Positions 5,534-52,415 of a stretch of DNA of 64,000 nucleotides are shown here, piece by piece. Positions within the stretch are counted from its first letter, which is position 1. Each line of letters opens with the position of its first letter. The notes under the pieces are model-generated. The model saw nothing but the letters and a program-made list of their open reading frames with translations, did no database searches and was not told the origin of the DNA. A program made the translations under genes and the position numbers. The stretch comes from an uncultured delta proteobacterium (GTDB lineage Bacteria; Desulfobacterota; Binatia; Binatales; Binataceae): the NCBI GenBank assembly GCA_963765675.1, contig CAVXXK010000001.1, positions 1,696,001 to 1,760,000 on the forward strand, written 5' to 3'.

Positions 5534-5569
5534 TATAGTTAACTATAGATATAGGGTTAACCATGTCAA
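5534..5569 (-). promoter_or_regulatory. Promoter with overlapping palindromic operator, probably bound by the adjacent TetR
   Basis: TTGACA-N16-TATAGT on minus strand; perfect palindrome TATAGTTAACTATA 5534..5547 and a second GGTTAACC core at 5555..5562. Confidence 0.6.
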
Positions 5570-5668
5570 TGCAGTCAAACGCCTGCGGCTCCGATTCGCC
5601 GCCCGCGATGCGGCGTAGCGGCGCGCGGGAATTTCTTTCGCCGCTATTGCCGTGTAAGTCATAGGGCG

Positions 5669-6364
5669 ATGGGTTTGCGCGAAGAAAAGAAGGCGGAGCA
5701 GCGCCGCGCGATCCTCGCGGCGGCGACCGCGATGTTCTGCAAGCGCGGCTACGAACAGACCCGCGTCCAGGATATCGTCGCCCGGCTGCGCATCAGCGAG
5801 GCGACGTTTTTCAATTATTTCCCGACCAAGGAAGCGCTGATACAGGAGTTTGCCCTCGAGCAGCTCGATTCCTCGATCGCCACGGTAACGGCCGAGCTCG
5901 AACGCCACGATTCCAGCGTGCCCGACCGCATTCGCAACATCATGGTTGTCGGATGGGCACGCGCATGGGACGCGAACCCCGAATTCCACACGCTGGTCGC
6001 GACCCACTCCCGGATGATGTCGGGGCCGCAGGGTCCATTGCTGCGCGAAAAGTCAATGCGCCTTTACAGTCTGTACGAGGAACTGTTTTCCGAAGGACAG
6101 CGCCGCGGAGAGATTCGATCCGATCAAAAGGCTTTGTACCTGGCCGAGATGCTTGAGGGCATGGTCATCAAGATCGCCGAGAACTGGATGGTCGGATGGT
6201 GGAAAGGCCGGACCGAGCCGCTCGAAGAGCGTTTCATGAACGCGGTCAACGTCTTTCTCGACGGATGCGCGCCGGCCCGCGGCGGCGCATCGCGATCGGC
6301 GCGCCCGAATATCGCGCTCAAATCCAAAGCGAAGCGCATCAAGCCTCCGATTCGCAGGGCCTAA
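5669..6364 (+). CDS. TetR/AcrR family transcriptional regulator
   Basis: N-terminal HTH 'GYEQTRVQDIVARLRISEATFFNYFPTKEAL'. Confidence 0.92.
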   Translation: MGLREEKKAEQRRAILAAATAMFCKRGYEQTRVQDIVARLRISEATFFNYFPTKEALIQEFALEQLDSSIATVTAELERHDSSVPDRIRNIMVVGWARAWDANPEFHTLVATHSRMMSGPQGPLLREKSMRLYSLYEELFSEGQRRGEIRSDQKALYLAEMLEGMVIKIAENWMVGWWKGRTEPLEERFMNAVNVFLDGCAPARGGASRSARPNIALKSKAKRIKPPIRRA

Positions 6365-46875: not shown

Positions 46876-48269
46876 GCCCTCCTGTCAGGCATCCGCCCGC
46901 GCGCGCGGCCTCGCCGCGTTCCACCGACGAGGGTTTGCATGCGCGGCGAATCGCACTCGATATTCTGCTCGAAGTCGAGTACCGCGGCGGATACGCCGAC
47001 GCACTTCTCGGCGGAAAAATCGCATCGCTCGATCCTGCCGATCGCCGCTTGGTGACGCGCTTGGTCCTTGGCACGCTCGCGTGGCGCGGGCGGCTCGATT
47101 ACGAGCTCGAGCGGATGACGGAGCGCAAGCTCGCGCAAATCCAGCCCGAGGCGCTCGAAATCATGCGGATGGGTCTGCTGCAGCTCCGGTTTCTCGATCG
47201 GATGCCGCAGCATGCCGTCGTTTCCACTACCGTCGAACTTGCCAAGCGCAACGCCGGGACCAAGGTTGCCGCGGGATTTATCAACGCGATAATGCGCCGC
47301 GCGACGCGCGAGCAAATGGCGATGCCCCCGCGCGAGCCCGAACTGCCGCACTACCTCGCGATCGCGTATTCGCATCCGCGATGGCTCGTGGAGCGGTTCA
47401 TCGAATGGTTCGGCGCCGAAGACGCCGAGCGCCTGATGGCCGCCGATAACGAGGCTGCGCCCAACGTGATCCGGCTGAATCTCGTGCGCGGGTCGCGTGC
47501 GGAAATAATCGAGCGGCTCTCTGCCGAAGGTTTCCAGATGGGCAGCGGCGGCCACGCGCTCGAAACGATCGTGCTGGCCAGCGCCGCCCGCTTCGATTCC
47601 GAGGCCTATCGCGCCGGGCTGTTCGTCGCCCAATCGGAGGCCTCGCAACTCGTGGCGCGGATGCTCGCGCCGCGCGCGGGCGCGGTGATTATCGATCTGG
47701 CGGCGGCGCCTGGCGGCAAATCGACGCATCTGGCGGAGCTCGCGGGCAAGGACGCGCGGATAATTGCGCTTGACCGAAATCATGGCGGACTCAAGAACGC
47801 GCGCGAACTCGCCGCGCGCCTCAGGCATCCGAATATCGAATTCGTCCGTGCCGACGCGACGGCCGCGCTTCCGTTTCCCGCGCGCAGTGCAGACTTCATT
47901 CTGCTCGATGCGCCGTGCACCGGACTCGGCACGTTGCGGGAGCATCCGGAGATCAGATGGCGCGTGCAGTCTGGCGATCCCGCGCGGATGGCGATTGTGC
48001 AGTCAGCGATGCTCGCGAACGCCGCGGAGATTCTCCGGCCGGGCGGAGCGCTGGTTTATTCCGTATGCAGCCTCGCGCCCGAAGAGGGCGAGGGCGTAAT
48101 ACGAGAATTTCTTGCCGCGCATCGCGAGTTCGAAATCGATCGAGCGCCCGCGATTCGCGCCGAAGCGCCGGGCCTCTTCGACGACGCCGGTTTCATGCGC
48201 ACGCGGCCTGACCACGGCGGCCTCGACGGCTTCTTCGCCGCGCGCCTCGTCAGAAGGTCGCCGTCCTGA
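46872..48269 (+). CDS. rsmB: 16S rRNA (cytosine967-C5)-methyltransferase RsmB
   Basis: NusB-like N-terminus, 'YSHPRW', 'DLAAAPGGKS', 'DAPCTG', 'YSVCS', 'DGFF'; def-fmt-rsmB order. Confidence 0.96.
   Translation: MSPPVRHPPARAASPRSTDEGLHARRIALDILLEVEYRGGYADALLGGKIASLDPADRRLVTRLVLGTLAWRGRLDYELERMTERKLAQIQPEALEIMRMGLLQLRFLDRMPQHAVVSTTVELAKRNAGTKVAAGFINAIMRRATREQMAMPPREPELPHYLAIAYSHPRWLVERFIEWFGAEDAERLMAADNEAAPNVIRLNLVRGSRAEIIERLSAEGFQMGSGGHALETIVLASAARFDSEAYRAGLFVAQSEASQLVARMLAPRAGAVIIDLAAAPGGKSTHLAELAGKDARIIALDRNHGGLKNARELAARLRHPNIEFVRADATAALPFPARSADFILLDAPCTGLGTLREHPEIRWRVQSGDPARMAIVQSAMLANAAEILRPGGALVYSVCSLAPEEGEGVIREFLAAHREFEIDRAPAIRAEAPGLFDDAGFMRTRPDHGGLDGFFAARLVRRSPS
47981..48269 (+). repeat. 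Direct repeat copy 1 (rsmB 3' end)
   Basis: Aligns to 50327..50609; about 17 mismatches in the first 264 bp by hand count. Confidence 0.95.
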
Positions 48270-48275
48270 TCAATC

Positions 48276-49658
48276 CTATTGCCCGGAAGCTCGCAGAGTG
48301 TGCACGGTTCGCAGAGCGAGATTCTGGATCGCGTGACTCTCTCGCTGGCCCAACGCCATCACGCCCAGTCCCAAAACGATGACGGCCACCGATACCGCCG
48401 CCACGCGATAGAAAATCGGCTTGCTGCGAATCTGGCCGTAGACGATCGGAATATCGATAAGCGCGCTCGCCATCGAGGTGAGCACTACCGCCATCCCCGC
48501 GCTGTCGGGCGATATGCTCCCCGTCGCCGCGAGTGCCGCTGCGGTTGCGGTGGTGCTCGCGCTGCTCACCAGTCCCCCGACAATACTGAGCGCGAGGAAT
48601 CCCGTCGTGCCAAGATAGCGCTCGGCGAGAGTGCCCGCGGCGGCGATAGCGAGGAACATCGCGGCGAACTTCAGTACGTGCGGCAGCGAGATCGGCGACG
48701 AGAGGGAAAGCTGAGACACCGGATTGTCGCGCCGTCGCCCATGGAACCAAACCACCACTAGTGCGGCCAGCGTCATGGCGGCGAGCGGAAGCAGCGCGGT
48801 GCCGACCGCCATCGGCGCGAAGATCGCGAGAATCACGAGGTTGCGCAGGAACATCGCAACGCTGGTGACCATGATCACGCCGACCGCCATCAGCGGCGAG
48901 CTCTCCGCTTCTCGGAACAGGCCCGAGAGCTCGGCCGCCGCCGCGGTGCTGTTCACCAATCCGCCAAGGAAGGCCGCGTAGAACGTGCCGCGCGTGCCGT
49001 ATAGCCGCAGCATCAGGTAGTTCGCAAATCCGAGCCCCGCGATCACAACCACGATCAGCCAGGATTGTTTTGGATTGAGCAGCGCGAAAGGATCGACAAA
49101 TCTATCGGGCAGCAGCGGATAGATGACGAAGGTCAGCAAGCCCAAGAGCACCGCGCTGCGAATCTCTTCCGGCTGCAGGCCGCCCGCGAAACGCGACAAG
49201 CCTTCTTTCCACGCCAGCAGCATCGTCATCGCGATCGCCGCCGTGATTGCCGTGAAATAATGTCCTTGCCCGATCAGCGCGCCGAGCATCAGCGTCACCA
49301 GCAGCGCGGCCGAAGTGGTTATTTCCAGCGGAGCGTCGCGATCGATCACGTACGCTGAATCGCGCGCTCTCGCGGCGGGGTTTGCTTCAACCGGTTCGAG
49401 CCGCCAATTCTTTACGAGGTGATGCACATTCAGAAGGATCACGAGCAGAAAGGTTCCGCAAAGAGCCGCGATGAGAAGGTCGGGCGCGACAAGGCAGGTC
49501 AGGGTCCCGAGCAACGCGATAATCGCGAAGGTGCGGACGCCAACCGCCTTCTGCGCCCACTCTCGCTCCAGTCCGACGAGCAGTCCGACGGCGACGGCCA
49601 GCGCGATTTTCGACGCAACGTCCGCGCGGGCGAAGGAACTAACAACAACGGGCGTCAA
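48276..49658 (-). CDS. MgtC/SapB-family membrane protein with DUF4010-like C-terminal region
   Basis: 'GLLVGLERE..GVRTF', 'EITTSAAL', 'YPLLPD', 'LGGLVNSTA'; TTG start 9 nt after SD AGGAGGT. Confidence 0.88.
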   Translation of the reverse strand: MTPVVVSSFARADVASKIALAVAVGLLVGLEREWAQKAVGVRTFAIIALLGTLTCLVAPDLLIAALCGTFLLVILLNVHHLVKNWRLEPVEANPAARARDSAYVIDRDAPLEITTSAALLVTLMLGALIGQGHYFTAITAAIAMTMLLAWKEGLSRFAGGLQPEEIRSAVLLGLLTFVIYPLLPDRFVDPFALLNPKQSWLIVVVIAGLGFANYLMLRLYGTRGTFYAAFLGGLVNSTAAAAELSGLFREAESSPLMAVGVIMVTSVAMFLRNLVILAIFAPMAVGTALLPLAAMTLAALVVVWFHGRRRDNPVSQLSLSSPISLPHVLKFAAMFLAIAAAGTLAERYLGTTGFLALSIVGGLVSSASTTATAAALAATGSISPDSAGMAVVLTSMASALIDIPIVYGQIRSKPIFYRVAAVSVAVIVLGLGVMALGQRESHAIQNLALRTVHTLRASGQ

Positions 49659-49810
49659 GTCTTCCGAACCTCCTCCAACAAAAGCATCACGCAGGCAGTG
49701 CGCCTGCAAAAGTGAATACGCCACCGCGCCAGCCGAGAGCGGCGGTCGCATGATGCGATCTTCTCGGCGACGATCGATTAAATTGCTTGCTGACAGAAAG
49801 GAGGTGGCCG
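49659..49810 (-). promoter_or_regulatory. Structured spacer: anti-SD formed by leader Pro codons pairs with the SD of the MgtC-like gene
   Basis: ACCUCCU (49805..49799) complements AGGAGGU (49674..49668); nested stems AAGCA/UGCUU, GCCGAGA/UCUCGGC, GCAGGC/GCCUGC. Confidence 0.6.
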
Positions 49811-50137
49811 CAGGAACATCGCGAGGTAAATCAGAAGCTCGCGGACGCCGTCGTCGGCGCAGAGTAAAACGAAGCCACCGATCAAATGAGGACGAAGGCC
49901 GGCAACGGCCAATAACCCCACGACCGCTGCCAGCGCCATCGCGCCGTCCACCGCCGCAAGAACTCGCGCTGGCTGGCCGCTGTCGGGCCGCAGATCGCCG
50001 TGCAGGATGTGGCTCGCGGGGAAGACGGAGAGGTTATCGTATCTGGCGAGTTGAACGTGGAGGCTGAGCGCGAACGTAAACAGAAGCATCAACACGATGA
50101 AAGGTTCTGATCGAAGCGGTGAACCTCTTACCGACAT
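49778..50137 (-). CDS. 119-aa membrane-targeted leader protein ending in FLRPPP (candidate arrest peptide)
   Basis: Two hydrophobic segments; RPPP followed by 6 residues and stop; own promoter upstream. Confidence 0.6.
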   Translation of the reverse strand: MSVRGSPLRSEPFIVLMLLFTFALSLHVQLARYDNLSVFPASHILHGDLRPDSGQPARVLAAVDGAMALAAVVGLLAVAGLRPHLIGGFVLLCADDGVRELLIYLAMFLRPPPFCQQAI

Positions 50138-50171
50138 TGAAAGCTTTTCGATGCCGAGCCTCACACAATCG

Positions 50172-50200
50172 AAGCTACGGTCGCATCTGCAATCAGTCAA
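50172..50200 (-). promoter_or_regulatory. Putative sigma70 promoter for the leader ORF
   Basis: TTGACT-N17-TAGCTT about 35 nt upstream of ATG 50137. Confidence 0.5.
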
Positions 50201-50203
50201 TAG

Positions 50204-50231
50204 AAAAGACCCCGCGCGAGCGGCGCGGGTC
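50204..50231 (-). terminator. Putative intrinsic terminator upstream of the leader promoter
   Basis: GC-rich hairpin GACCCGCGC...GCGCGGGGTC followed by TTTT on the minus strand. Confidence 0.45.
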
Positions 50232-50318
50232 GTCACCGCGGCGTGCGCGATGATAGACTGATCGCGACGACAGAAAGTTCTGCTGCGAAACATTCAGATG
50301 GAAACTGCGGTCCGCACA

Positions 50319-50609
50319 GGCAAGGACGCGCGGATGGCGGTTGTGCAATCAGCGATGCTCGCGAACGCCGCGGAGATTCTCCGGCCGGGCGGCGCGCTGG
50401 TTTATTCCGTATGCAGCCTCGCGCCCGAAGAGGGCGAGGGCGTGGTGCGAGAGTTTCTCGCCGCGCATCGCGACTTCGAAATCGATCGAGCGCCCGCGAT
50501 TCGCGCCGAAGCGCAGGACCTCTTCGACGACGCCGGTCTTATGCGCACCCGCCCCGACCACGGCGGCCTCGACGGCTTCTTCGCTGCGCGAATAGTTAGA
50601 AAATCCTGA
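50319..50609 (+). pseudogene. Duplicated, internally deleted rsmB 3' fragment (direct repeat copy 2)
   Basis: 50319..50335 equals rsmB 47745..47761; from 50327 it aligns to rsmB 47981 onward. Confidence 0.9.
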
Positions 50610-50770
50610 TAAGATCTGACCTTCTGATGACGCGAAGATGCGCTTTTTGGTGCGCAGCGGCAGTTTCTGCGCGCCAGGCCGTTGCGCTGCCGCGCACCTT
50701 GATTGGAAAATGCTCTTTGCGGGCGGCGCGGATTCTCTTAGATTGATTGGTGGGGGTTCAAGCGTTCCGA

Positions 50771-51496
50771 ATGGCGAAGCACCGCCGAATCTCAGTCGCG
50801 TGGATATCGAACGGCCTGCGCGTTTCGGCTGTCGCACGCACGGCCGCTAGCATCCCAGTGCTCGCGGCGCTTGCCATCGTCGGACTTGCAGGGTGTTCGG
50901 CTCAGAATCCGGCTCCCGATTTCGCCCGCTCATCATCTCAGTCTGGTGCCGCGCTCTACCCATTGGGCGCGAATCCGGTTATTGCGCCGCACGTCGAAGT
51001 GGCGTCGTGGTACGGTTCCGGATTCCAAGGGCATCCGACCAGCACTGGCGAGAGCTTCAATGAATATGGCCTCACCGCCGCGTCCAAGACTCTTCCGCTC
51101 GGAAGCACGGTGCGCGTGACCAATCCCGCCAACGGACGCTCGGTCAATGTACGGATTAACGATCGCGGCCCATATGTGCGCGGTCGCTCGCTCGATCTCT
51201 CCAAGCGCGCGGCACAGAGCCTCGGGATCACGGGCACCGGTGTAGCTCCGGTGTTGGTTGCCTCATCCGAGGCGGCGCCCATTCGAATACATTATTCGCC
51301 GCCTCACGGAGTCGCCGCCAGGACCTACCGGCCTGCGCATCACACGGCGGAGCATTCGGCGATGCGCTGGAGCCGGTCGAGCGCACATCGGCAGCCCGTT
51401 TACCGCATCGTGCGCACGTATCATTGGCGGCGGCATTCGCGGACGGTCTGGAATCCGGTTGGCGCGTGGATCGAGAGTTCGCTCTCTACACTCTGA
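50771..51496 (+). CDS. rlpA: RlpA-family lytic transglycosylase lipoprotein
   Basis: Lipobox LAGC; 'ASWYG..TAASKTLPLG..VRINDRGPY..DLSKRAA'. Confidence 0.9.
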   Translation: MAKHRRISVAWISNGLRVSAVARTAASIPVLAALAIVGLAGCSAQNPAPDFARSSSQSGAALYPLGANPVIAPHVEVASWYGSGFQGHPTSTGESFNEYGLTAASKTLPLGSTVRVTNPANGRSVNVRINDRGPYVRGRSLDLSKRAAQSLGITGTGVAPVLVASSEAAPIRIHYSPPHGVAARTYRPAHHTAEHSAMRWSRSSAHRQPVYRIVRTYHWRRHSRTVWNPVGAWIESSLSTL

Positions 51497-51614
51497 ATTT
51501 CTGATGCGAATGGCAGTGTTCCCACTGGTTCGCTTTCCGCGCTCTCCGGAATCAGCTAATTGGTCTATGCAGCGCGAATCGCATGCTGATCTCTGACCGA
51601 AAGAGGGCGAATTC

Positions 51615-52415
51615 ATGGATACCGCGGCAAGTACCCGACTCAAAAGACTCGACGAGGCGATCAGCCGCCACGTGCGGCCCGATTCGTTCCCGCTCGGAAT
51701 CCGGATGCTCAAGCCCGGCGAGCCCGTGCCCGAGGGCTTGCGTATCCCGAGCAAGAGCATGGGCGAGCACTGGATCGTATGCCAATCGATCGGAGTCGCG
51801 CGACGCTACGGATGGGGAATCGCGGTGGGAAAGGAGGACGTGATCTGTCCGCTCTCCGCGATCGCATTCGGATTTCGCAAACCCAACGATGAATACCTGC
51901 GTGGCTTCGCCTCGACCGGGATGTACTGCGAGAACGAGGAAGCGGCCACGCGGCTCGAAGCAGGAGTCTGGCACTTCGAGCCGGGCAGCTACGATTACGT
52001 CTGCGTCGCGCCGCTTGCCCGCGCGACCTTCGAGCCGCACGTCGTCGCGGTGTATGCCAACAGCGCGCAGGTGATGCGGCTGGTGAACGCCGCCCTCTAC
52101 ACCCGCGGCGGAAGAATCGAAAGCACGACCGGAGGGCGGCTGGATTGCGCGGAAATAGTAATTCAGACGATGACCACCGCCGCGCCCAAGGTGATTATTC
52201 CGTGCAACGGAGATCGTGTATTCGGGATGGCGCAGGACACAGAGATGGTTTTCGCGTGTCCGTGGGCGTTCGTAGACGAACTCTTAAAGGGACTCGAAGG
52301 TACCTACAAGGGAGGCGTGCGCTATCCGATTCCGGTGGCGATGCGAGGCACGGTCACGATGCCGAAGCATTACCAGGAGCTGCTGACAATGCTCGAGAAG
52401 CGCGATACCAAGTAG
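51615..52415 (+). CDS. DUF169 family protein
   Basis: 'CQSIGVARRYGW..DVICP', 'QVMRL', 'DCAE', 'PCNGDR'. Confidence 0.8.
   Translation: MDTAASTRLKRLDEAISRHVRPDSFPLGIRMLKPGEPVPEGLRIPSKSMGEHWIVCQSIGVARRYGWGIAVGKEDVICPLSAIAFGFRKPNDEYLRGFASTGMYCENEEAATRLEAGVWHFEPGSYDYVCVAPLARATFEPHVVAVYANSAQVMRLVNAALYTRGGRIESTTGGRLDCAEIVIQTMTTAAPKVIIPCNGDRVFGMAQDTEMVFACPWAFVDELLKGLEGTYKGGVRYPIPVAMRGTVTMPKHYQELLTMLEKRDTK

What the first reader, a model, noticed from the sequence alone, without database searches (positions are those of the whole stretch)
48276..50231. Candidate new arrest-peptide switch: RPPP leader whose Pro codons pair with the SD of an MgtC/DUF4010-like gene
Seen, on the minus strand: terminator-like hairpin, TTGACT-N17-TAGCTT promoter, a 119-aa ORF with an N-terminal hydrophobic segment ending ..FLRPPPFCQQAI, a 119-nt spacer, then the membrane protein gene. 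The codons CCA CCU CCU contain ACCUCCU (49805..49799), the exact complement of the downstream SD AGGAGGU (49674..49668). This helix would close a multibranch fold with stems AAGCA/UGCUU, GCCGAGA/UCUCGGC, UCGCA/UGCGA and GCAGGC/GCCUGC. Known: RAPP-like C-terminal motifs stall ribosomes in ApcA, ApdA, ApdP and occur in DUF2946/CruR leaders; SecM and MifM stalling frees a sequestered SD; Salmonella mgtC is controlled by the leader mgtP with three consecutive Pro codons. Inference: a ribosome stalled at RPPP would cover the anti-SD and switch on the downstream gene, with release tied to membrane targeting, EF-P or ion status. The leader lacks CruR's CxxC, and I know of no described arrest peptide for this target family.
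Basis: partly seen in the sequence, partly recalled or inferred. Interest (0 to 1): 0.8.

Follow-up and report, generated by a model that had tools for sequence, protein, structure and literature searches.

The report
Proline-stall leader gene before MgtC-like gene
A small membrane-protein gene ending in Arg-Pro-Pro-Pro sits in front of an MgtC/DUF4010 membrane-protein gene and belongs to a conserved, unnamed family that looks like a ribosome-stalling sensor leader, but the proposed pairing of its proline codons with the next gene's ribosome-binding site is particular to this genome.

Summary

The 119-aa ORF is a real gene of an unnamed family, found only in Binataceae among the genomes searched (12 of 165 family genomes).
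- HxLHGDL is invariant.
- 33 of 36 proteins carry x[P/A/G]PP 2-8 residues from the C-terminus: RPPP 20, RAPP 10, RGPP 1, CPPP 1, HPPP 1.
- A linker of only 19% identity keeps a length of 57-63 residues.
- In 13 of 14 informative loci an MgtC/DUF4010 gene follows, directly or after a small two-helix membrane gene. The 14th holds a truncated remnant.

This is the architecture of RAPP-like sensor and arrest leaders such as CruR and CutF, but there is no DUF2946 match and no CxxC motif.

The ACCUCCU:AGGAGGU helix is strongly predicted here (P 0.71-0.97). It is predicted at 0.00-0.18 in the six other short-spacer loci, including two congeners. The Pro codons vary freely.

How a stall would reach the downstream gene is open: unmasking of the ribosome-binding site, or Rho-dependent termination. 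No stalling has been shown. I rate it a new variant of a known kind, of moderate interest.

The parts
50205..50232 (-). G+C-rich hairpin with a U-rich tail, upstream of the leader promoter. Its role is unknown. It is shared only with the two genomes of the same genus.
   Evidence: 7 G-C pairs, tail GTCTTTTCTA. The alignment of upstream regions shows it in win and L010, and degenerate in L011.
50172..50200 (-). Promoter: -35 TTGACT (50200..50195), 17-nt spacer, -10 TAGCTT (50177..50172).
   Evidence: It fails the consensus scan. In the alignment of 15 loci, conservation begins abruptly at TCTATTGAC: TTGAC in 11 loci, TTGAT in 3, and a TA(G/A)C(T/C)T-like -10 at fixed spacing.
49778..50137 (-). 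Leader gene, 119 aa. It has an N-terminal hydrophobic helix, an invariant HILHGDL, a variable linker, the conserved module REL-LIYLAMFL-RPPP, and a 6-residue tail.
   Evidence: Homologues, alignments. GC by codon position is 0.69/0.42/0.67. AF2 gives helices 11-38, 56-79 and 96-108 with pTM 0.34. No Pfam or NCBIfam family.
49991..50011 (-). Codons for HILHGDL (residues 43-49), the invariant candidate sensor motif.
   Evidence: H43, H46, G47, D48 and L49 are invariant in 29 of 29 aligned sequences. The motif lies 66-72 residues before the P-site Pro in 33 proteins.
49799..49810 (-). Codons CGG CCA CCU CCU (R110-P113), a RAPP-like candidate arrest site. They contain ACCUCCU (49805..49799).
   Evidence: P112 and P113 are invariant and R110 is kept in at least 90%. 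Motif counts; codon variation.
49659..49777 (-). The 119-nt spacer between the leader stop codon and the DUF4010 start codon.
49712..49763 (-). Sequence block after the stop codon (..GACCG..CGG..GGCGUAUUC), conserved in the 11 RPPP-type loci. Function unknown.
   Evidence: Alignments. RNAalifold finds only a 3-bp hairpin (-1.69 kcal/mol). No Rfam family: the one hit has E 4.6.
49680..49708 (-). Terminator-like hairpin (GCAGGC/GCCUGC) with a U-rich tail, inside the spacer and just before the SD.
   Evidence: It is kept in G044 with one G-U to G-C change, has a weak U tract in G336, and is absent from other clades.
49656..49674 (-). SD AGGAGGU (49674..49668) and start codon TTG (49658..49656) of the DUF4010 gene.
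   Evidence: The start is placed by alignment with homologues that begin at the equivalent GTG or ATG. The upstream ATG at 49751 is not conserved.
48276..49658 (-). Membrane-protein gene, 460 aa, with an N-terminal MgtC domain and a DUF4010 domain.
   Evidence: Pfam. NCBIfam gives only weak MgtC/SapB hits. Orthologues.

Best explanation
The 119-aa ORF is the first gene of a small operon. It encodes a member of an unnamed, Binataceae-restricted family of sensor-plus-arrest leader proteins, analogous to CruR and CutF but not homologous to them.

Shown:
- The family is real.
- It has an N-terminal hydrophobic helix and an invariant HxLHGDL motif.
- It has a poorly conserved linker of fixed length (57-63 residues).
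- It has a conserved ~16-residue module ending in R-[P/A/G]-P-P, 2-8 residues before the stop.
- The MgtC/DUF4010 gene lies directly downstream, in some loci after a small two-helix membrane gene.
- A conserved promoter lies in front of the leader.

Inferred:
- The N-terminal helix takes the nascent chain to the membrane.
- The ribosome pauses with R-x-P in the P site and Pro-tRNA in the A site, as in ApdA, ApdP and CruR. At that moment the His/Asp motif is about 68 residues from the peptidyl-transferase centre, outside the tunnel and probably at the outer face of the translocon.
- What the motif meets there (a divalent metal or a partner is my guess) decides how long the stall lasts.
- Stall duration sets expression of the downstream membrane proteins.

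The link from stall to downstream expression is unresolved. In this genome the leader's 3' end, Pro codons included, is predicted to occlude the SD (CutF/SecM-type). Across the family, a C-rich, G-poor tract over the stall site and a long spacer fit Rho-dependent termination control (CruR-type) about as well.
For: Family is real and narrow:
- 13 clusters at E <= 0.01 among 5.8 billion proteins.
- 25 representatives at E <= 0.001 among 1.84 billion.
- Genomes with a match: 7 of 401 in the class sample, all in one family; 1 of 401 in the phylum sample, the window's own genome only; 12 of 165 in the family.

Motif:
- Of 36 distinct proteins with HxLHGDL, 33 carry x[PAG]PP 2-8 residues from the C-terminus: RPPP 20, RAPP 10, RGPP 1, CPPP 1, HPPP 1.
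- P, A and G are the residues that kept arrest at that position in ApdP and ApdA mutagenesis. Arg and the following Pro tolerated almost nothing (PMC12992588, section 7 read).
- Selection acts on the peptide, not the RNA. Among the 11 RPPP loci the three Pro codons show 10 different combinations.

Architecture:
- Mean pairwise identity is 0.55 (TM1), 0.54 (His loop), 0.19 (linker), 0.51 (C-terminal module) and 0.17 (tail). Linker length is 57-63 in 29 of 29 sequences.
- CruR shows the same conserved sensor-to-RAPP spacing and a long intergenic region (PMC9426467, passages read).
- AF2 finds three helices and no confident tertiary fold (pTM 0.34).

Linkage:
- DUF4010 follows in 13 of 14 informative loci. 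The 14th holds a 63-codon remnant.
- The promoter is conserved, and conservation stops just upstream of it.

Context:
- The same genome has a CruR-like small ORF (CxxC..RAPP plus 3 residues) 17 nt before a TonB-dependent receptor gene.
- The genome encodes Rho and EF-P.
- A C>G tract (mean +9 per 40 nt) covers the stall site in 14 of 14 loci.
Against: - No stalling, no regulation and no expression data exist. No RNA run holds the locus.
- RPPP was only partly permissive in ApdA and in ApdP in E. coli. [quoted passage not shown]
- One family member has CPPP and one HPPP, although Arg is reported irreplaceable.
- No conserved RNA structure links the stall site to the downstream start.
- The C>G tract follows partly from Pro, Leu and Phe codons.
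- Fixed linker length could reflect the narrow, young family rather than a ruler.
- DUF4010 orthologues also occur without the leader: 2 of 10 loci at 76% identity or more, and 12 of 14 at 56-68%. The leader is therefore dispensable.
- The ligand is a pure guess.
Confidence: 0.6

Rival explanations
1. The Pro codons CCA CCU CCU are themselves the anti-SD. A ribosome stalled on RPPP covers them, frees AGGAGGU and turns on translation of the DUF4010 gene (SecM/MifM/CutF-type). This would be the mechanism of this genome's lineage, not of the family.
For: - The 8-bp helix ACCUCCUU:GAGGAGGU is in the MFE and has P 0.71-0.97 in three sequence contexts.
- The SD region is 91% paired in the free mRNA.
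- CCU is 12 of 39 Pro codons at the motif across 14 loci, against 8.5% in 1,235 long ORFs of this genome. CCUCC occurs in 7 of 14 loci.
- CutF is a precedent: a PPP stall melts an SD-shielding stem-loop (bioRxiv 10.1101/2025.02.05.636593, abstract and discussion read).
Against: - Pairing of the SD window with the RxPP codons is 0.00 in both congeners (leader 83% and 73% identical) and 0.01-0.18 in the four other short-spacer loci.
- Footprint masking raises SD accessibility only from 0.09 to 0.18 in the window, rank 19 of 63 mask positions. Among all loci, only 3 of 14 rank in the top 10% of positions (L010, L011, L012).
- The stall window ranks 15 of 144 as duplex partner of the SD.
- Fold z-score is -0.45.
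- In 7 loci the next gene is a different small gene with a weak SD.
- The CCU excess is not corrected for shared ancestry and could equally serve slow decoding.
Confidence: 0.15
2. The small protein is a structural or assembly partner of the MgtC/DUF4010 membrane protein (and of the two-helix protein), not a regulator. On this reading R-x-P-P is a translational pause that gives a short membrane protein time to be targeted and inserted, or simply part of a cytoplasmic tail.
For: - All two or three genes of the unit encode membrane proteins.
- TM1 and the His loop are as conserved as the C-terminal module.
- Many members have a second hydrophobic segment 25-55 residues before the motif.
- The leader is 119 aa, much longer than classical leader peptides.
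Against: - The linker has 19% identity and there is no confident fold.
- The motif position (2-8 residues from the end) and the substitution spectrum P/A/G after a near-invariant Arg match arrest motifs, not a generic tail.
- DUF4010 orthologues occur without it.
- The second hydrophobic segment is missing in about a third of members at the threshold used.
- This rival does not exclude regulation. CutF and CruR are also exported proteins.
Confidence: 0.2
3. An mgtP-like attenuator. The consecutive Pro codons report proline-tRNA charging or EF-P activity, and ribosome position selects between alternative RNA hairpins that terminate or permit transcription into the MgtC-like gene.
For: - A terminator-like hairpin with a U-rich tail lies in the spacer (49708..49690). 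Its U tract pairs with the leader's last codons in the MFE.
- The downstream gene has an MgtC domain.
- The Salmonella precedent is known to me from search listings and abstracts only (PMC3641672, PMC5299641).
Against: - The hairpin is confined to the genus and has a weak U tract in G336.
- RAPP and RGPP members have only two Pro codons.
- The invariant His motif, the hydrophobic helix and the fixed linker have no role in such a model.
- mgtP is a very short ORF with no similarity to this protein (recalled, not tested).
Confidence: 0.05

Closest known systems
CruR (Bordetella pertussis Bp2923, DUF2946)
   Same: - A small exported protein encoded first in the operon.
- A conserved sensor motif at a conserved distance from a C-terminal R-x-P-P placed a few residues before the stop.
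- A long intergenic region before the regulated gene.
- Regulation proposed through arrest (PMC9426467, abstract and passages read).
   Different: - No DUF2946 match in 0 of 29 members.
- HxLHGDL in place of CxxC.
- Spacing of about 60 linker residues instead of 45.
- Mostly RPPP rather than RAPP.
- The target is an MgtC/DUF4010 inner-membrane protein, not a TonB-dependent receptor.
- Rho dependence and metal response are untested here.
CutF (Rhodobacter capsulatus, DUF2946)
   Same: A C-terminal PPP stall motif in a co-translationally exported small protein. An SD-shielding RNA structure before the downstream gene, as predicted for this window.
   Different: - Unrelated sequence, with no CxxxC.
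- The SD-shielding helix is not conserved in the family.
- The target is not a copper oxidase.
RAPP-like arrest peptides ApdA, ApdP, ApcA, SecM and the RAPP/RGPP small proteins of Fujiwara et al. 2025
   Same: - The R-[A/G/P]-P-P core near the C-terminus of a small protein with an N-terminal localisation signal.
- A conserved adjacent N-terminal stretch.
- Patchy phylogenetic distribution.
- Downstream genes of diverse function (PMC12992588, abstract and sections 7 and 13 read; PMC10987492, passages read).
   Different: - The downstream gene is not a Sec or YidC component.
- RPPP, the commonest form here, was not one of the two motifs (RAPP, RGPP) mined in that survey.
- 'MgtC' and 'DUF4010' do not occur in its main text. 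Its supplements could not be read.
mgtP leader of Salmonella mgtCBR
   Same: Consecutive Pro codons upstream of an MgtC-family gene.
   Different: mgtP is a very short ORF in a transcription-attenuating leader RNA (listing and abstract only). Here the ORF is a 119-aa membrane protein with a conserved sensor motif. No conserved alternative hairpins were found.

Membership tests
RAPP-like arrest peptides (ApdA/ApdP/ApcA/SecM class) | R-[A/G, partly P/S]-P-P (or RAPG/RAGP) core a few residues from the C-terminus | tested here: met
   33 of 36 family proteins carry it: RPPP 20, RAPP 10, RGPP 1, CPPP 1, HPPP 1. It lies 2-8 residues from the end. The permissive set comes from PMC12992588 section 7.
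RAPP-like arrest peptides (ApdA/ApdP/ApcA/SecM class) | N-terminal signal peptide or transmembrane segment in a small protein (<300 aa) | tested here: met
   A hydrophobic segment lies 78-108 residues before the P-site Pro in nearly all members. AF2 gives helix 11-38 at pLDDT 87-90. No dedicated signal-peptide predictor was available.
RAPP-like arrest peptides (ApdA/ApdP/ApcA/SecM class) | Conserved stretch N-terminal to the core (the part that lies in the exit tunnel) | tested here: met
   The C-terminal module (residues 96-113) has 0.51 mean identity, against 0.19 for the linker.
RAPP-like arrest peptides (ApdA/ApdP/ApcA/SecM class) | Experimentally shown elongation arrest (peptidyl-tRNA, toeprint, reporter) | not testable with these tools
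   No experiment was possible and no RNA or Ribo-seq data are listed.
Sec/YidC monitoring substrates (SecM, MifM, VemP, ApdA/P) | Encoded upstream of secA, secDF or yidC | tested here: not met
   The downstream gene has MgtC and DUF4010 domains. In other loci a small 2-TM gene with no family comes first.
DUF2946 (CruR/CutF) | Match to Pfam PF11162 | tested here: not met
   0 of 29 members match at E <= 1. Caveat: the genome's own CruR-like ORF also has no Pfam hit.
DUF2946 (CruR/CutF) | Conserved CxxC or CxxxC copper-binding motif | tested here: not met
   There is no conserved Cys. The invariant motif is HxLHGDL.
DUF2946 (CruR/CutF) | Conserved spacing between sensor motif and arrest motif | tested here: met
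   Linker length is 57-63 residues in 29 of 29 sequences, and 57-61 in 28 of 29. This is an analogous feature, not evidence of homology.
DUF2946 (CruR/CutF) | Metal-dependent control of the downstream gene through the arrest motif | not testable with these tools
   Needs reporters.
mgtP-type attenuator leader | Very short ORF with consecutive Pro codons inside a leader RNA with alternative terminator and antiterminator hairpins | tested here: not met
   The ORF is 119 aa. A terminator-like hairpin exists only in this genus. There is no conserved structure.
MgtC/DUF4010 membrane proteins (downstream gene) | Pfam MgtC (PF02308) and DUF4010 (PF13194) domains above cut-off | tested here: met
   53.8 bits (cut-off 31.4) and 154 bits (cut-off 30).

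The most novel reading that the evidence does not exclude
This is a new class of transmembrane sensory arrest peptide. A His/His/Asp motif is held about 68 residues from the peptidyl-transferase centre and reads a periplasmic ligand, most plausibly a divalent cation, while the ribosome waits on R-x-P-P. Stall time then sets production of an MgtC/DUF4010 membrane protein. If true, it would give the first functional handle on DUF4010 proteins and a second sensor chemistry, unrelated to DUF2946, for the CruR/CutF principle. Different lineages of one bacterial family would wire the same stall to different outputs: SD occlusion here, something else elsewhere.
Probability: 0.3. Interest if true: 0.65.

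Novelty: new variant of a known kind. Interest (0 to 1): 0.45.

Why it matters
[quoted passage not shown] Only a few have been characterised, chiefly the Sec/YidC monitors, CruR and CutF.

This family adds a case whose comparative signature is unusually clean:
- an invariant sensor-like motif;
- a linker of fixed length but free sequence;
- a substitution spectrum at the arrest core (P, A, G) that matches mutagenesis data;
- a target, MgtC/DUF4010, with no known function and essentially no literature.

It also carries a caution for sequence-only reading. An exact 7-nt SD/anti-SD complement that folds with high probability can still be lineage-specific.

The organisms are uncultured soil Binataceae, so any test must be heterologous.

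Tried and rejected
- Rfam scan of 49500-50400 at E <= 10: only a chance CRISPR-repeat hit, E 4.6.
- RNAalifold on the post-stop block of 11 loci: a 3-bp hairpin only, -1.69 kcal/mol. I could not explain this conserved block. I considered an internal promoter and a small ORF. I rejected both because the spacing is wrong and there is no conserved start codon.
- In-silico footprint masking and duplex ranking gave no family-wide support for SD unmasking.
- Phylum-level genome search: no match outside the window's own genome, 1 of 401.
- ESM Atlas: nearest clusters are unnamed hypothetical proteins, with recognition below the usual level. Not used as evidence.
- Profile comparison with the genome's CruR-like ORF: only 9 C-terminal residues align, probability 0.47%.
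- Sequencing runs: no RNA holder listed. Six DNA holders have small shares.
- AF2 of the leader: low pTM. No fold search was made.
- The idea that the 275-nt rsmB repeats bracket an inserted leader-DUF4010 cassette was rejected. Relative to sister genomes, the extra DNA is the rsmB fragment plus the RlpA-like gene.
The genomic context of most of the 25 representatives therefore could not be seen.
- Paper supplements are closed and were not requested. The lists of downstream gene groups in PMC12992588 and PMC10987492 may bear on whether this family was already catalogued.

Unpublished genomes:
- G856 is counted in the 12 of 165. Its locus is L046, and apparently also L024, one of the seven short-spacer loci.
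- G213 (L042), G857 (L050), G372 (L063) and G087 enter the DUF4010 tallies and the 'orthologue without leader' counts.
Full report
**What is in the sequence**

Read on the minus strand, the region holds, in order:
- A G+C-rich hairpin with a U-rich tail (50229..50211). The terminator scan flags it.
- TTGACT, 17 nt, TAGCTT (50200..50172).
- A 119-aa ORF (50137..49778) ending FLRPPPFCQQAI.
- A 119-nt spacer.
- AGGAGGU (49674..49668), then TTG at 49658.
- A 460-aa gene with MgtC and DUF4010 domains (Pfam 53.8 and 154 bits).

The codons CGG CCA CCU CCU contain ACCUCCU (49805..49799), the exact complement of the SD. The linear observation is therefore correct.

The helix is in the minimum-free-energy fold as 8 bp.

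- The fold is no more stable than shuffles. Its z-score is -0.45, and 61 of 200 shuffles fold at least as well.
- The promoter does not pass a consensus scan.

**The ORF is a real gene of a narrow, unnamed family**

- A word-indexed search of 5.8 billion proteins found 13 clusters.
- A full HMMER scan of 1.84 billion representatives with the alignment found 25 at E <= 0.001.
- No member matches any Pfam family relevant here. 0 of 29 match DUF2946 at E <= 1. NCBIfam gives nothing.
- Whole-genome searches found the gene in 7 of 401 genomes sampled from the class, all in one family. In the phylum sample it was found in 1 of 401, the window's own genome. In the family it was found in 12 of 165 genomes, 7 of 30 genera.
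- Record titles call the family's genomes Candidatus Binataceae or 'uncultured delta proteobacterium'.
- The window's genome has one copy.
- GC by codon position (0.69/0.42/0.67) has the same shape as the neighbouring membrane-protein gene.

**Anatomy of the family**

In 29 aligned sequences the invariant residues are L24, H43, H46, G47, D48, L49, P112 and P113. R110 is kept in at least 90%.

Of 36 distinct proteins that have HxLHGDL, 33 carry x[P/A/G]PP 2-8 residues from the C-terminus: RPPP 20, RAPP 10, RGPP 1, CPPP 1, HPPP 1. The other three diverge midway and look frameshifted or truncated.

Mean pairwise identity by segment:

| Segment | Identity |
|---|---|
| First hydrophobic helix | 0.55 |
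| His loop | 0.54 |
| Linker | 0.19 |
| 18 residues ending in RxPP | 0.51 |
| Tail | 0.17 |

Despite its sequence drift, the linker is 57-63 residues long in all 29 and 57-61 in 28. The first His is therefore 66-72 residues from the P-site Pro.

AlphaFold2 with this alignment gives three helices (11-38, 56-79, 96-108) and no confident tertiary fold (pTM 0.34).

**Neighbourhood**

I examined 14 loci: 12 genomes and 2 metagenome contigs. A further contig, L018, ends inside the leader.
- In seven loci the leader is followed after 88-121 nt by the DUF4010 gene (window, L010, L011, L012, L013, L017, L024).
- In six loci a conserved 87-105-aa two-helix membrane gene with no family lies between them (L014, L016, L022, L023, L037, L038). 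It starts 102-198 nt after the leader stop.
- In L015 the leader (RAPP type) and the small gene are followed by a 63-codon remnant of DUF4010.

The leader's promoter is conserved. In 15 aligned upstream regions similarity starts abruptly at TCTATTGAC, with TTGAC in 11 and TTGAT in 3. A TA(G/A)C(T/C)T-like -10 follows at fixed spacing.

DUF4010 also occurs without the leader.
- Among 30 DUF4010 loci of the family, the leader HMM hits 10.
- It is missing from 2 of 10 loci at 76% identity or more. One of these, G805, keeps what looks like a remnant of the leader's 3' end.
- It is missing from 12 of 14 loci at 56-68% identity, and from all 5 distant paralogues.

**Comparison with known arrest systems**

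- Systematic mutagenesis of ApdA and ApdP showed that Arg and the following Pro of RAPP tolerate almost no change. At the second position, Gly is fully permissive. Pro is near-fully permissive for ApdP in B. subtilis and partly permissive elsewhere. RxPP with x = G, A, S or P was also recovered from random libraries (PMC12992588, section 7).
- The same paper reports that RAPP and RGPP motifs cluster near the C-termini of small secreted or membrane proteins upstream of genes of many functions (section 13).
- CruR has a CxxC motif at a conserved distance from RAPP, a 162-bp intergenic region, and acts through Rho-dependent termination (PMC9426467, passages).
- CutF stalls on PPP and melts a stem-loop over the next gene's SD (bioRxiv 10.1101/2025.02.05.636593, abstract and discussion).

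The family here reproduces this architecture point by point. Its sensor motif is different, and it has no sequence relationship to DUF2946.

The same genome carries a CruR-like ORF before a TonB-dependent receptor. Only its last 9 residues align with the leader.

**The proposed switch**

The Pro-codon/SD helix is not a family feature.
- The mean probability that the 16-nt SD window pairs with the RxPP codons is 0.39 in the window. It is 0.00 and 0.00 in the two congeners, and 0.01, 0.07, 0.18 and 0.00 in the other short-spacer loci.
- The Pro codons vary synonymously: 10 combinations in 11 RPPP loci.
- Constraining a 31-nt stalled-ribosome footprint raises the unpaired fraction of the SD/start region from 0.09 to 0.18 in the window, rank 19 of 63 mask positions. 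It helps clearly only in L010, L011 and L012. It does nothing, or the opposite, in the three-gene loci.
- As a duplex partner of the SD region, the stall window ranks 15 of 144 in the window and is never first in any locus.

Two observations keep a lineage-specific version alive.
- The helix is robust here.
- CCU, a rare Pro codon (8.5% in 1,235 long ORFs), makes up 12 of 39 motif Pro codons. This gives CCUCC in 7 of 14 loci. That count ignores shared ancestry and could equally reflect selection for slow decoding.

**Other routes from stall to output**

- A C-rich, G-poor tract (mean C minus G of +9 per 40 nt) covers the stall site in all 14 loci, and the spacer then turns G-rich.
- The genome encodes Rho and EF-P.
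- A sequence block after the stop codon is conserved in the 11 RPPP loci, with no detectable consensus structure and no Rfam match.
- In this genus only, a terminator-like hairpin lies just before the SD.

None of this decides between CruR-type and CutF-type coupling.

**Verdict**

The leader and its R-x-P-P are conserved, and their pattern of conservation is what an arrest-peptide sensor predicts. The specific RNA switch is not conserved.

I put 0.2 on a structural or assembly role without regulation, and 0.05 on an mgtP-like attenuator.

It is a new variant of a known kind. No paper found links arrest peptides to DUF4010 or MgtC-domain targets (listings only), but supplementary catalogues could not be read.

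Claims that include genomes flagged unpublished (G856, which is L046 and apparently L024; G213; G857; G372; G087) are marked in Tried and rejected.

Noticed in passing
window 47981-48255 and 50327-50601; 50298-51638: A 275-nt direct repeat (92% identical) is a second copy of the 3' end of the rsmB gene. Relative to two genomes of the same genus, window 50312-51638 is extra DNA. It holds this rsmB fragment plus an RlpA-like lipoprotein gene at 50747-51496. At the junction, the first five codons of the next gene (METAV, 50298-50312) are fused to the rsmB fragment, and that gene's start recurs at 51615. It looks like a duplicative recombination between two gene orders.
   Followed up: partly
L069 3719-4054 (-), = G000 contig C3, about 231218-231553: A 111-aa ORF has an N-terminal hydrophobic segment, CPICLHHCH, and a C-terminal RAPP plus 3 residues. 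It lies 17 nt upstream of an 828-aa TonB-dependent receptor gene, which is followed by an ExbB/TolQ-like ORF named by eye. This is CruR-like by architecture, but there is no Pfam hit at E <= 0.1.
   Followed up: partly
window about 49712-49763 (-) and the equivalent in L010-L014, L016, L017, L022-L024: A sequence block after the leader's stop codon (..GACCGAUGCUUGUCGGUCCG..GGCGUAUUC in most loci) is conserved in both operon classes. It has no consensus structure and no Rfam match. Unexplained.
   Followed up: partly
L022 3538-3801 (+); also L014, L015, L016, L023, L037, L038: A conserved 87-105-aa gene for a two-helix membrane protein lies between the leader and DUF4010 in seven loci. In L038 its stop abuts the DUF4010 start, and in L037 the gap is 12 nt. 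It has no Pfam or NCBIfam family. It is absent from the window.
   Followed up: partly
window 49690-49708 (-): A terminator-like hairpin (GCAGGC/GCCUGC) with a U-rich tail lies inside the spacer, immediately before the SD. It is kept in G044 with a G-U to G-C change, and its U tract is weak in G336.
   Followed up: partly
L014 (G354) leader; L015 (G151) 5558-5749 in leader orientation: The G354 leader has an in-frame TGA in its linker. In G151 the DUF4010 gene is cut down to 63 codons, while the RAPP-type leader and the small gene are intact. These may be decaying copies or assembly errors.
   Followed up: no
window 49751 (-): An in-frame ATG 31 codons upstream of the TTG start would extend the DUF4010 ORF to 491 aa, as listed. 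It is not conserved in the two congeners (ATA and ACG at that place), so TTG at 49658 is the likelier start.
   Followed up: yes
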